DNA of 64,000 nt, from assembly GCA_951406725.2 (NCBI GenBank), contig OX597815.1, positions 141,856,001 through 141,920,000 of the forward strand, in the 5' to 3' direction. The translations under genes were made by a program, and so were the position numbers. Positions within the stretch are counted from its first letter, which is position 1, and each line of letters starts with the position of its first letter. Shown here piece by piece: positions 3,310-62,984 of this stretch. A model generated the notes under the pieces. The model had not been told where the DNA came from and ran no database searches. It saw only the letters and a program-made list of their open reading frames with translations. The stretch comes from Octopus vulgaris (taxonomy: Eukaryota).

Positions 3310-3452
3310 AATTAAACAGCCAGCTTCCTAAAGATTTCATCTGAATGAAACAGTTCTAGTCCTGTAGAAGCTCCTTCTATAAAATAAATTACTTTACTCT
3401 GCTATGTATTGAGTACCTTATTTACTGTGGTTAACCCCGACTCAACCCGGGA

Positions 3453-3456
<4 letters not shown>
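3310..3456 (+). mobile_element. Short hammerhead-bearing repeat (family X, Penelope pLTR/retrozyme-like), monomer copy
   Basis: Reverse complement matches 38991-39120 and 56528-56660 (gtaggtcccgggtt..ggggttaaccacagtaa.taaggtactcaatacatagcagagt). Ends against a (TA)n tract. Left boundary approximate. Confidence 0.8.
3322..3372 (+). ncRNA. Type I hammerhead ribozyme motif, core mutated (CUAAAGA)
   Basis: agcttc CTAAAGA t-ttc-atct-gaa-t GAAA cag-ttctagtc-ctG TA gaagct. Stems I, II and III all pair, but the G5 position is A. Confidence 0.65.
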
Positions 3457-6372: not shown

Positions 6373-8869
6373 CATCTCACTAATGATGAAATGGAATATA
6401 TTTTCCCTAAATTTTTTAAGATAAAACCTACCAAAGCAGTATCTGATAAACTATGTATTACAAAATAAGGTCTATATTTATATTGAATTCTAAATCATAT
6501 TTTTTACAAAGATCACTAACACCTATATTCCCGGATGGTAATCATGTAACATACTATGGATTGAGTATTTTACTTCCAGTAAACTATGTACTTACTCAAC
6601 ACTCTGGCGCAGAGTAAACGCACATCAGCAGGAATGAAGCAGACCGTTTCAGACACTAGCAAGGACATCATTAATCATACAAATAGTCACTGAAAGAAAA
6701 TATAGTGAAAATTTTCAAATCTTGCTTGAATCATAATATACACGTTGCTCTTAATGCTGAGCGTGCAGTTTATGCCGCTTATATATTCAAGGTCTTTAGT
6801 TTAAAGTAAACCAAAATAAACAAAAAATACGTGATGATTGGTAAGACAAATGAAAGAACATTTGCAATATATATATACGCTGTTTGTTTAACTGTGTTAG
6901 AAGATTTTCAAATCAAACAGAAAGCAAAACCCACTTACTAAACAGAACATAATTAATTTAAAAGTCTCTAAATAAATCTTTTCAAAATGAGAGACAATGG
7001 GGTTTTGTAAACACACACAGCTTCACATTCACAACACCGGTTCGACAATTTATAAAATAATGTTTTATCATAAGTAACATTACCATAAACTAATATATAG
7101 AAAGCATTATCTAGAGGACTAATGCTATCTAAAATTAGAACGGATTAATAATTAAACACCCGGAGTAGAAACGTGCCTGATAAATATTACTTTCAAACAT
7201 AGGATTGGTCGTGTTAGTTTGATCGAAGCCTTCTATGATCAGAGTTATTTCCCTATGAAGTGAAACCAGGCCTAAAATACATTATGTCTCTTTTAAGAAG
7301 ATAGCTTGCTATCAACAATGGTGATTATACGAAATCTCCTACATTTTGAATGGTTAGTGAAGTGGGAAACGACAGAAAGTAATTTAACCTTTACTGCAGT
7401 AATCAAAATAAAATGAAATATAAAGTTTTACCGGTTTAAGGCATAAAATATAGTGTCAGTGTTAAGCCCAGAACAACGAGATCTTGACTTTGATATTCGA
7501 ACAAATGCTGATAAAACATACATAAGTATTGTAGCCGACCCATTTGACTAAACAAACCTTCCAGACGGTGAATGGCCGCAGTCTAATGACTGAAATAAGT
7601 AAAAAGGTGAAAGATAGAAGATAACGTGTCTAACATTTCTACTTGTATACATGTTTGGCTATATCGCATGAGTTATTCATATACTGGCGAGTCAGGTGAC
7701 AACGTGTTTTAAGACTATTAACGCTGATTTTTTGTTACAATTGACAACTTACTTTGAATGCCATTTCTTACAGGTATTCTATATATATTCTATACTAAGT
7801 CTGAATCAGCTGGCAATTCAACATTATCTGTCATGATAAACACACCAGTGCGATATTTGAATGAAGAAAATTTCTTATGCCAGAAGTGAAATTTAAGTGG
7901 AATGTGACTCATAAACTGTCAGCTAATTAACAAAAATCTACATAAAATATCCTGTAATTCAATTTCTATTTGATAAAGTTCTGTAAGGCCCAATACGCAG
8001 TTTGATCTGATTTATACCCAAAATTACTTCCACGCGCTTCTGGTGTGTTTTACATACTTCTATGTCTAAAGGTTGAACGCCTAGTTATAAAATCATTCAA
8101 ACTATTGTTATATTCGCCTCAGAGAAACATGGCATGTAAATTCAAATTCAGATTGAATGAAAAAAATATACCCACATTGCTATGATGGGTGAAGTGAAAC
8201 TCAAATATAATTAAGTGAATCAAAGTGCCTGATAAATTAATTTTGCGGTCGCTATCGCAATGAACAGAGATATGGTTCAGGCTTATGGAACAAATTCAAT
8301 AAAATCTTCATCTGATTGTCGATAGCATTGCATGACATTAAAAAAAAAGGATTTGATATAATGTTATGGCAGAAGCTTATAAAAGAATATGATGTTTATC
8401 GATTTTCTCAACTAGAGTCGAGTGTGTGCCGATGCTGAAATGATAGAGTTTTTACAAGTTTTGAGTACAAGAAAAGAAAAACTATTTTTACCGATCGACT
8501 CAACATTTTAATACATTTCAATGCTTCATTAAAATGCATTATGTCTATTGCCTCTGATATTCGTATCCACTTTATTGCTTGAACATGGCTGATTTGCCCT
8601 CCCATCCGGCCACGCACGATGTAATGTCAGCACTGTTTCTTGAAACAACCCTTAATTTCATCTCTTTTATCTTTATTTTTTTTCATAAACAGTTCTTCTT
8701 TATACTTATCTTTGATACGCAGATTCTTCATTCGTTTCCACTCTTAAATACCTTACTCTCATTAATCATTTCCACCCGTCTCGTTCGTTTCGACTCTAAA
8801 CTACCACCACTCATTCAATATTTCTATCCGCTTCTTCCAATGCCTGTCCCCATCTATTCTCTTTAAAAC

Positions 8870-9957
<1,088 letters not shown>

Positions 9958-38059: not shown

Positions 38060-38600
38060 ATGCAATTCAAAGTAATTACTTCTTTGCAATCCCACCAGAT
38101 AGAGAGAGAGAGAGAAGAATATTTTTCCCTTAAAGTTCCCTTCTCGGTCGTGGCTGAGGTTTTTCTCTTTTACCAAGCCACTGTTTAACATTTCGATAGA
38201 AGATCCATTTTTCGTCACCAGTCACAAGTCTATCCAAAAACGGTAAAATGAGTTCGCGAGAATGGAAAAAATAGCAGATATCAACTCGGGATTTGCGTTG
38301 CTTTCGGACATTTCATGAGGCACACATTTTCCAAGTTTAGGAATCTTTCTAAGTTGTTGAAGATGACGATGAACAGGTGTATGGTTGGAAGTAAGCTTTA
38401 TTGCCAAATTTTCATCTGATAATGCAGGATTTCCTTCAAGTAATGCCGCAAGGAGCTTATCAAACTCAACTGGACGGCCTGTTCGATCTTCATATTCAAG
38501 GGTGAAATCCCCACTTCTGAATTTTGCAAACCATCTTCTGCAAGTTCTTTCATTCGAGCATTCTTTCCCATAAAAGTCATCATGTAGGCATTTTAAATTT
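38060..38600 (-). pseudogene. mariner transposase fossil
   Basis: ERTCRRWFAKFRSGDFTLEYEDRTGRPVEFD..VHRHLQQLRKIPKLGKCVPHEMS..FLDRLVTGDEKWIFYRN..WWDCKEVI, i.e. HTH, WVPHEL and first catalytic D motifs. Frameshifted. Confidence 0.9.
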
Positions 38601-38956
38601 CTTTTAAAACATGTTATCGCGTTTAAATTTCTATCTTACAAACAGAAAAGGGTGCTTGACAAAATTGAATAAATTAGCATAGAATAATGGGGTGTTACGT
38701 TGTCAACGTAATGTGACAGTCCTAGGGCTAAATACCAATAGTATTCTTCCCTTTCATGGGGCTACCACATTAAGTTGACATCACCCCACAACTTTATTGT
38801 GTGTAATCTCCCTGAGATATCAAGAAATGTATTATTTGTATCATAGAATAATGAATAATGGTTTCATATAATTTTTGTAATTAAGATCTAAACTGTTAAT
38901 ATATGAATGCGAAAGAGATAGTTGAATCATTGTAAACCATTTGGGACACGCTATAA

Positions 38957-39291
<335 letters not shown>

Positions 39292-55924: not shown

Positions 55925-56216
55925 ATATATATAATATATACATAGCTGTGACGAAATCATGGTATGCTTTGCTTTCTGGCTTTGTAATCATCTCATCATA
56001 ATGACTTTTATGACTTTTATTACTACCTATGTCTATCTAAATGTGTATAATTGTCGTTACCTTTCATAAAAAGGCTTTTCTTTTTTTATTTACAACGTGC
56101 ATTTTCGTTGATTTTTCTTACTTCCCCCTTACATTTCCACGTGTATTTTATATTTTCTTTTTGTAACATATTTCTACTGTGTATATATACACATATATAT
56201 ATATACATATATATAT

Positions 56217-56475
56217 ATATAATATAATTCGAGACAAAACCACTATTTTAAAACCAAACAAGGAAAGACTTAATCAATACATAAAATTTTAATATAAATT
56301 AAATAATTATTTAATTTATATTAATGTTATGTATTGATTAAGTCTTTCCTTGTTTGGTTTTAAAATAGTGGTTTTGTCTCGAATTATATTATATAATATT
56401 TTACTATAAAATTGGATTTAACCCTAAATCTGATTTTTTCCCTGTAATTTTGGATTCATTCCCTAATATTTATTA

Positions 56476-56480: not shown

Positions 56481-56527
<47 letters not shown>

Positions 56528-56530
<3 letters not shown>

Positions 56531-56712
56531 GGTCCCGGGTTAAGTCGGGGTTAACCACAGTAAATAAGGTACTCAATACATAGCAGAGTAAATTAATTTA
56601 TTTTATAGAAGAAGCTTCTACAGGACTAGAACTGTTTCATTCAAAAGAAATCATCAGGAGCTTCCTGATGATTTCTTTTGAATGAAACAGTTCTAGTCCT
56701 GTAAACTCTTTC

Positions 56713-56716
<4 letters not shown>
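56528..56716. mobile_element. Family X hammerhead repeat with a 41-bp perfect fold-back
   Basis: Arms 56619-56659 and 56663-56703, loop gct. CTGATGA..GAAA..GTA occurs on both strands. (TA)n flanks. Confidence 0.9.
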
Positions 56717-56780
<64 letters not shown>

Positions 56781-61252: not shown

Positions 61253-61254
<2 letters not shown>

Positions 61255-61793
61255 CCAACATTATGGAATAACAACAGAAAAAAGATGGTATAGGCACACA
61301 CCAGAAAAGGTCACAGAAAACGAGAAAGCAACCATACTCTGGGATATGCCGATACACACAGATAGAGAAATTAAGGCCAATAGACCAGATATAGTTGTCA
61401 GAGATCATGAAGAAAAAAAATGCTTTCTAATTGATGTATCAATACCGGCTGATGACAACGTGTCTCTAAAAGAAATGGAGAAACTCTCAAAATACAAAGA
61501 CCTGGAAATAGAGGTAACTAGAATGTGGAATCTGAAAACAGAAACAATTCATATCATAGTAGGTGCATTAGGCATGATAAAAAAATATTCAGAAAAATAC
61601 ATAACAAAAACACCAGGACTTACAAACACATATAACATACAGAAAATTGCACTACTAGGCACTGCACACATCCTACGCAGAACACTTTCCATACAATAAC
61701 CATCAGAGCATCACAACAAATCACAGCACATACCCAAGGCACACAGAGCTGTGCTCGGTAGTGAAGTGAAAGCACGCTATAAAAATAAAACTA

Positions 61794-61912: not shown

Positions 61913-61951
61913 GACACCTGATGAAGGCTGATGAAGCCGAAACGTTGTGTT
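61913..61951 (+). ncRNA. Minimal type I hammerhead ribozyme motif (Penelope-type, palindromic stem III)
   Basis: gacac CTGATGA a-ggct-gatga-agcc GAAA cg TT gtgtt: stem I gacac/gtgtt, stem II ggct/agcc, and palindrome AACGTT in place of stem III. Confidence 0.7.
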
Positions 61952-62396: not shown

Positions 62397-62494
62397 CACA
62401 TACATACATACATACATACATAAATACATACATACATACATACATACATACATACATACATACATACATACATACATACATACATACATACATA
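62397..62494. repeat. (TACA)n microsatellite
   Basis: Direct reading of the sequence. Confidence 0.95.
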
Positions 62495-62496
62495 CA

Positions 62497-62984
62497 AGCG
62501 AGCTATGGTTCTTAGAAAAAGACAGCCTTTAAACGTGAAAGAATTATTAACAAAGGCAAATTTTGACCTTAGCAACAAAGACCAATCATTCACTGTATAT
62601 AAGTGCAGTGACAGCGAATGTGATACATGCCAATTCATACATACCAGACAATATATGAACACAAAAACTGAAAAAAATAATCACAAACAGAACATGAACT
62701 GCAAAAGCAGAAATTTAATTTACTGCATCAAATGCCCGAATTGTAAAGAACTATAAGTGGGTCAGACTGGAAATACACGCTTGGAACATTTTCGTTTGCA
62801 CCGACAGCAAATTAGAGAATCAGACGTCCGTCAGATAACATTGAGTAACAATCTAGCAACATGTGGTCGGAAAATATTTATAATATTTTCATTCTACAAA
62901 CTACACATTCTAAGTGAAAATAAGAGAAAAATCAGAGAAAAGAACTTTATTAATAAATTCATACCGACGCTAAATAAACAATAA
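62497..62984 (+). pseudogene. Penelope-like element C-terminus: Cys-rich linker plus GIY-YIG endonuclease, one in-frame stop
   Basis: KRQPLNVKELLTKA..CSDSECDTC..MNCKSRNLIYCIKCPNCKEL*VGQTG..FRLHRQQI..RKIREKNFINKFIPTLN. The TAA at 62754-62756 replaces the Tyr of YVG. Confidence 0.85.

What the first reader, a model, noticed from the sequence alone, without database searches (positions are those of the whole stretch)
56528..56716. Ambisense hammerhead: intact CUGAUGA core on both strands of a 41-bp palindrome
Seen: the inversion centres on the AGCT of stem I. Both strands therefore read CTGATGA-tttcttttgaat-GAAA-cagttctagtcct-GTA (plus core 56665-56671, minus core 56651-56657). The minus copy keeps a bulged stem I; the plus copy's 3' stem I strand is degraded. 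Inference: a read-through transcript would form a long hairpin that sequesters the ribozyme, a built-in off switch and a potential Dicer/ADAR substrate. This is a second independent fold-back at nearly the same position as the 39-kb copy.
Basis: partly seen in the sequence, partly recalled or inferred. Interest (0 to 1): 0.7.

Follow-up and report, generated by a model that had tools for sequence, protein, structure and literature searches.

The report
Cap-marked fold-back stub of Penelope retroelement
This mirror-image ribozyme motif is one of about 800 similar scraps of a Penelope-type jumping gene in this animal genome, likely made when the first 135 letters of its RNA were copied twice and joined head to head; it is unlikely to be an evolved off switch, but the scraps likely mark where the element's RNA begins.

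Summary
The structure is real: 41-bp perfect arms around a 3-nt loop, with a hammerhead core on each strand. It is neither rare nor a switch. It is a stub of a Hydra-clade Penelope-like element (PLE) inserted in (TA)n. The genome holds 808 such head-to-head cores and at least 2,057 copies of the tail. A full-length parent shows that the stub equals the leader upstream of the RT-endonuclease ORF. Junctions vary, occur in both polarities, and the arms match at subfamily sites (40 of 40), so the fold-back is made at insertion. Inverted PLE insertions are published, and this scan noted them before on other DNA of this genome. New here: arm ends pile up at the first base of hammerhead stem I, often with an extra G that neither target nor element supplies (21 of 33 single-arm copies). 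This resembles the cap-derived G of full-length L1. Likely mechanism: two cDNAs primed inside the capped leader run off its 5' end and are joined. The minus copy's 'bulged stem I' is a junction accident. Cleavage, expression and the cap are untested.

The parts
56528..56595 (-). PLE 'tail' (+63 to +130, counting the C of CTGATGA as +1); in the parent it is leader sequence running on towards the ORF start; its outer end abuts (TA)n
56596..56659 (-). Tail-bearing arm: 3' part of the pLTR with hammerhead core (56657-56651), weak stem II, GAAA, 4-bp stem III, cleavage triplet GTA (cut predicted between 56619 and 56618) and 3' strand of stem I; its native 5' stem I strand is lost at the junction
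56658..56664 (+). Junction. The plus arm starts at -5 (AGCTTC, native 5' strand of stem I, 56659-56664). G56658 can be read as the family's extra 5' G or as the last base of the other arm, so it is ambiguous in this copy
56659..56717 (+). Tail-less arm: second copy of -5 to about +60 with core 56665-56671 and GTA 56701-56703; the 3' stem I strand has lost two G, a lesion seen in other copies
56481..56527 (.). (TA)n target flank, tail side
56718..56777 (.). (TA)n target flank, tail-less side
38991..39181 (-). Independent fold-back stub of another subfamily (core CTGAAGA, loop II TCTT), 60-bp arms, junction inside the stem I/core region
3322..3456 (+). Uninverted stub of the same family with a mutated core

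Best explanation
The palindrome is an insertion stub of a Hydra-clade Penelope-like retroelement, likely made when two cDNAs were primed from the two ends of a cut (TA)n target at two fixed sites in the element's 5' leader, ran off the likely capped 5' end of the RNA at the first base of hammerhead stem I, and were joined head to head. Shown by sequence: family, parent element, two fixed outer ends (+62 and +130), inner ends at -5/-4, an extra G in many copies, varied junctions in both polarities, matching arms. Inferred: that -5/-4 is the transcription start, that the G copies the cap, that the template was uncut sense RNA, and that end-joining with short snap-back synthesis made the junction. 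The two-strand hammerhead is a by-product with no role of its own.
For: Parent L192 reads pLTR-hammerhead-tail-ORF(RT, GIY-YIG type)-3'UTR-pLTR-tail, with Hydra motifs. There are 2,057 exact tail matches and 808 head-to-head cores within 20 nt. Of the first 100 tail copies by position, 78 show an inverted arm by BLAST (75 by a tag test). Outer ends lie at +60 to +70 in 75 of 78; inner ends peak at -5 (24 of 100 tail arms, 23 of 78 inverted arms); 9 have arms that do not overlap, which snap-back cannot make. This exact junction occurs 143 times, 17 versus 13 of 30 in the two polarities. Arms agree at loop II in 40 of 40 copies (18 non-majority) and at +55 in 43 of 43. Extra base: of the arm ends stopping at -5/-4, 52 of 72 (among 100 listed ends, hand count), 24 of 35 (among all 64 ends, second subfamily) and 19 of 26 (script) continue with a C on the cDNA that the element does not have. 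In copies joined straight to (TA)n, G precedes AGCTTCC in 21 of 33 (72 loci listed, hand count); 20 of 20 such loci checked had no inverted-arm tag within 400 bp. Precedents: cap-derived G at full-length L1 5' junctions (PMC11702581, passage); two internal RT start sites and uncut template in a PLE (PMC11167929).
Against: No RNA evidence for a start or cap at -5: only contigs were available. In this copy the G is shared with the other arm and proves nothing. In two-armed copies many extra C could come from snap-back synthesis. The patterns select ends near -5 (though not the base at -6). Perfect palindromes (20 of 93 arms) fit ends at -3, -4 or -5 equally. In D. virilis Penelope the start lies upstream of an intron that ends at helix I, and an AG with a pyrimidine tract is present here too. 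RTs can add untemplated bases without a cap (recalled).
Confidence: 0.7

Rival explanations
1. Same by-product, but the RNA 5' end at stem I is made by processing: exonuclease trimming up to the folded or protein-bound hammerhead, or use of the AG at -5/-4 as a splice acceptor. The extra G is then untemplated addition or the end of an upstream exon.
For: Every subfamily keeps AG after a pyrimidine-rich stretch. In D. virilis an intron ends at helix I (PMC4209133). Two copies have unrelated sequence before the G (L056, L117). An earlier scan note (e1-8670049) reports exon trapping by a PLE hammerhead module in this genome.
Against: Arms keep the AG and then stop; no shared upstream exon appears. 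The extra G also follows ends at -4 (7 of 28 such loci). AG is explained by stem I pairing.
Confidence: 0.15
2. One cDNA snaps back on itself, or self-priming occurs on an antisense template (proposed in PMC3846280), or fold-back masters are copied whole and their centres revised later.
For: Short snap-back inserts are common at junctions. Arms match within a copy. The perfect palindrome is the commonest single junction.
Against: 9 of 100 copies have non-overlapping arms. Both polarities occur equally. Single arms of both types, with and without tail, start at the same edge with the same G. Some junctions carry the extra base on both arms.
Confidence: 0.1
3. One reading: the fold-back is a functional off switch or a selected source of double-stranded RNA for Dicer or ADAR.
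For: The hairpin is very stable. PLE copies yield small RNAs in other animals (PMC3846280, passages). An earlier scan note reports an ADAR-edited PLE in this genome (e1-8666285, not checked).
Against: Hundreds of copies with arbitrary junctions. Both ribozymes are damaged here: the hammerhead fold has probability 0.0002 for the isolated minus arm versus 0.01 for the native form. No host exon was recognised among the window's long ORFs.
Confidence: 0.05

Closest known systems
Hydra clade of C-terminal EN+ Penelope-like elements, incl. Hydra-1_Obim (Craig et al. 2021, PMC8557442; passages, section 11 and supplement rows seen)
   Same: Single RT-EN ORF, RW(K/R), DKT, CxCX5C, CxxC and CxH motifs, hammerhead in the pLTR, (TA)n target, inverted 5'-truncated copy with the tail on one side only.
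   Different: Hammerhead sequence differs from Hydra-1_Obim. The unit is about 4.3 kb because of a long microsatellite-rich 3' UTR. The tail is about 68 nt, not 30-40. The stereotyped stub ending at stem I with an extra G is not in the passages read.
Poseidon PAc in vitro mechanism (Frangieh et al. 2024, PMC11167929; main text parts 1-2 of 4 and passages read)
   Same: Two internal RT start sites that define the tail, in the pLTR-ORF junction; both target strands cut and extended; uncut RNA used.
   Different: Other clade; its hammerhead overlaps the ORF start; the parts read do not treat inverted products or the RNA 5' end.
PLE hammerheads and opposite-strand pairs (Cervera and de la Pena 2014, PMC4209133; parts 1-2 of 4 read)
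   Same: Type I hammerhead in the pLTR; dual motifs on opposite strands were reported; low activity expected.
   Different: Reported pairs lie about 100-700 bp apart, here 0-20 nt. Stem III is 4 bp and stem II is short, without G10.1-C11.1.
L1 twin priming and the cap-derived 5' G (PMC11702581, passages read)
   Same: Two primers from one target break; extra G at a complete 5' end.
   Different: In L1 the inverted parts barely overlap; here both cDNAs cover the same leader and both reach the RNA end.

Membership tests
Hydra-clade PLE | Single ORF with RT and C-terminal GIY-YIG endonuclease | tested here: met
   L192, a broken copy read in three frames; 573 homologues at E<=1e-20. Pfam itself gave only sub-threshold RVT_1 and GIY-YIG hits, on 2 of 5 homologues, and none on this family's pieces.
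Hydra-clade PLE | RWK and DKT motifs | tested here: met
   IRWRSFFF (K to R) and SDKTKN in L192; definition
Hydra-clade PLE | CxCX5C linker; CxxC and CxH in the EN; no CCHH | tested here: met
   CNCPDKTTC, CDLC, CMH, read by eye
Hydra-clade PLE | Hammerhead in the pLTR and insertion into (TA)n | tested here: met
   the tail end is followed by an AT repeat in 82 of 100 by a strict test
Hydra-clade PLE | Length generally under 3 kb | tested here: not met
   About 4.3 kb between the pLTRs of L192; a general trait in the paper, not a strict one
Hydra-clade PLE | Placement in the RT phylogeny | not tested
   No tree was built; likeness to Hydra-1_Obim was judged by eye
Type I hammerhead ribozyme | Core CUGANGA / GAAA and NUH triplet | tested here: met
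   Both arms. In the family 50 of 63 parsed cores are intact, with N7 = T (42) or A (8).
Type I hammerhead ribozyme | Stems I, II, III | tested here: inconclusive
   Parent: 6, 3 and 4 bp; the hammerhead fold is not the lowest-energy one. In this copy stem I is non-native (minus) or broken (plus). No Rfam hit.
Type I hammerhead ribozyme | Self-cleavage | not testable with these tools
   Only about 4 of 100 copies have an arm ending near the cut site, so the templates were mostly uncut or re-joined
Non-LTR retrozyme | Tandem non-coding units, each with a hammerhead | tested here: not met
   Head-to-head stub of a coding element; no tandem units; definition

The most novel reading that the evidence does not exclude
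This Hydra PLE is transcribed from a capped start at the first base of its hammerhead. Its RT primes inside the 5' leader as well as at the 3' end, giving a run-off product like retroviral strong-stop DNA. Thousands of genomic stubs are thus a natural 5'-end map of the RNA, and they show that head-to-head PLE palindromes come from two sense-templated cDNAs, not from antisense self-priming.
Probability: 0.55. Interest if true: 0.6.

Novelty: new variant of a known kind. Interest (0 to 1): 0.42.

Why it matters
How PLEs form their head-to-head inverted ends is stated as unresolved in PMC8557442, and was tentatively ascribed to antisense self-priming in PMC3846280. This family gives hundreds of young, very short products with both ends readable, and a possible cap mark that fixes the RNA start at the ribozyme edge. 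That makes the two-cDNA model directly testable with CAGE data and the existing in vitro PLE assay. The single locus itself is ordinary debris.

Tried and rejected
Rfam scan of the window: no hit. Pfam and PDB sequence searches with this family's ORF pieces: nothing informative. No protein-atlas result was obtained. RNA: no holder is on record as RNA, and the four-run lays were contigs only, so they say nothing on start site, strand, level or editing. They do show contigs with an extra A at 56658 (the perfect-palindrome junction) in 3 of 4 runs, so the family structure is not peculiar to this assembly; no contig was shown to be specific to this locus. An apparent two-template copy (L104) was an alignment artefact and was dropped. 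My first clade guess (Neptune) was rejected on the linker motif. Inheritance from one folded master was rejected on junction diversity and polarity. Stops at the hammerhead cut site are rare. Paper searches found no report of a cap G or a start at helix I in PLEs; the library lacks most subscription papers, and I did not see the supplements of PMC11167929, PMC4209133 or PMC3846280.

Full report
Numbering: +1 is the C of CTGATGA in the element's sense orientation.

Observation. The window has perfect 41-bp arms at 56619-56659 and 56663-56703 around GCT, with a hammerhead core on each strand, inside (TA)n flanks. The hairpin beats all 200 shuffles on either strand. The heptamer by itself is at chance level and Rfam finds nothing. 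Two more copies lie in the window: 38991-39181 (60-bp arms) and 3322-3456 (no inverted arm).

Family. The genome is 2.8 Gb; an octopus is my guess from its size and from earlier scan notes, not from a call. It holds 2,057 exact matches to 28 bases of the tail, 143 copies of this exact junction and 808 loci with two cores head to head within 20 nt. I took the first 100 tail matches by position on contig C1. BLAST found an inverted arm in 78; two of these (L071, L128) were partial hits to long arms, and a tag test gave 75. In 35 of 100 both arms reach the 5' edge of the core.

Parent. Extending long copies gave RT and endonuclease sequence. Of 20 further endonuclease-bearing loci, L192 has the whole layout: pLTR, hammerhead, tail, ORF start about 50 nt after the tail, RT, endonuclease, a long microsatellite-rich 3' UTR, a second pLTR and tail. 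It is broken by frameshifts. Its motifs match the Hydra clade as defined in PMC8557442 section 11. That paper's supplement lists a Hydra family from Octopus bimaculoides with a different hammerhead. No tree was built. The window stub equals -5 to +130 of this parent, all upstream of the ORF.

Native hammerhead. Upstream of the core the parent reads AGCTTC, which pairs with GAAGCT in a 6-bp stem I. In the window this strand is on the plus arm, whose 3' strand has lost two G. Loss or change of the G of AGCT was seen in 10 of 68 tail-less arms and 3 of 79 tail arms. The minus arm has lost the native 5' strand; its bulged stem I uses the antisense of the other arm and one substitution at 56612. 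So neither strand has a native ribozyme here.

Made at insertion. Tail-less arms end at +60 to +70 (75 of 78) and tail arms at +130. These are two fixed outer ends, like the two RT start sites of PAc (PMC11167929). Junctions are diverse and carry short templated inserts. The window's junction occurs in both polarities, 17 and 13 of 30. Arms within a copy share subfamily bases in 40 of 40 and 43 of 43 parsed cases. In 9 of 100 copies the arms do not overlap, which needs a second priming on RNA. About 4 of 100 stop near the cut site at +39.

Why the apex sits at stem I. Inner ends peak at -5 in the position-ordered sample (24 of 100 and 23 of 78), although perfect palindromes blur -3 to -5. Junctions with inserts resolve this. 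Of 100 listed arm ends (of 144, counted by hand), 48 stop at -5, 24 at -4, 6 at -3, 9 further in, and 13 run on into the pLTR; 37 of the 48 and 15 of the 24 continue with C, which the element lacks there. A second subfamily (all 64 ends; the first 30 checked by script) gives 11 of 15 and 13 of 20, with 3 ends ambiguous and 14 running on. The script on the 100 copies gives 13 of 18 and 6 of 8, after setting aside 20 palindromic and 22 run-on arms of 93. The cleanest set is single arms joined directly to (TA)n: the first 100 rows of 221 are 72 loci (by hand). In 33 the AGCTTCC is whole, preceded by G in 21, C in 6, A in 5 and T in 1; 28 start at about -4 (7 with G); 10 at -3; 1 is a variant. Twenty of these loci were inspected: none had an inverted-arm tag within 400 bp, 9 had the tail and 11 did not; one (L265) abuts an inverted tail. 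An extra 5' G is attributed to the mRNA cap in full-length L1 insertions (PMC11702581, passage). I infer a capped start at -5/-4. Where both arms carry the extra base, 20 of 24 pairs share the same start (hand count; p about 0.002 under a crude null), which fits one RNA or one source locus.

Mechanism (inferred). The endonuclease cuts both strands of (TA)n. One end primes at +130 and the other at +62, each with AT-rich microhomology. On the 5' copy of the leader both cDNAs run off the cap after 135 and about 67 nt. Their 3' ends are trimmed, sometimes extended by snap-back, and joined. Priming at the 3' copy of the tail gives the longer truncated insertions. This differs from the antisense self-priming suggested in PMC3846280 (passages).

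Limits. No raw RNA reads were available. The G is ambiguous in this copy. A processed 5' end or a splice acceptor at the same AG remains possible. Cleavage is untested.

Comparison and verdict. Inverted, tailed PLE insertions and opposite-strand hammerhead pairs are published. Earlier notes of this scan reached the Hydra and two-armed reading on other DNA; their summaries do not mention the extra G, and nine paper searches found no report of it in PLEs. Papers seen: PMC11167929 and PMC4209133, parts 1-2 of 4; PMC8557442, passages, section 11 and supplement rows; 10.64898/2026.07.22.740005, part 1 of 5; PMC2377424, PMC11702581, PMC11371274 and PMC3846280, passages. The locus is ordinary debris; the family-wide 5' signature is the part worth following.

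Noticed in passing
window 56216-56395: A second, unrelated AT-rich fold-back (69-bp perfect arms, inner 18-bp palindrome) 130 bp from the finding, next to another high-copy repeat at about 56380-56463.
   Followed up: no
window 61918-61951 and 62424-62756 (+): Another hammerhead-like core pair, followed by an ORF piece with a cysteine-rich, GIY-YIG-like motif (recalled likeness): probably a different Penelope-like family.
   Followed up: no
window 38222-38635 (-) and 61253-61699 (+): ORF pieces that look like a mariner transposase and a restriction-like endonuclease of a non-LTR element (recalled, not searched).
   Followed up: no
rows, e.g. L270; Recurring 5' ends G-T-GCTTCC (5 of 72 single-arm loci): the first A is replaced by T after the extra G, as if RT misreads a modified cap-adjacent base.
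   Followed up: partly
tail-less arms, +40 to +43: The G of AGCT just after the predicted cut site is lost or changed in 10 of 68 tail-less and 3 of 79 tail arms: an error hot spot, perhaps from RT crossing stem I or a nick.
   Followed up: partly
L117 upstream of the stub; L056: Unrelated sequence joined directly before G-AGCTTCC; possibly a splice or template jump from another RNA.
   Followed up: partly
L102 about 7760-9901 (+): A second, different RT-endonuclease element of similar type lies 3 kb from the family copy.
   Followed up: no
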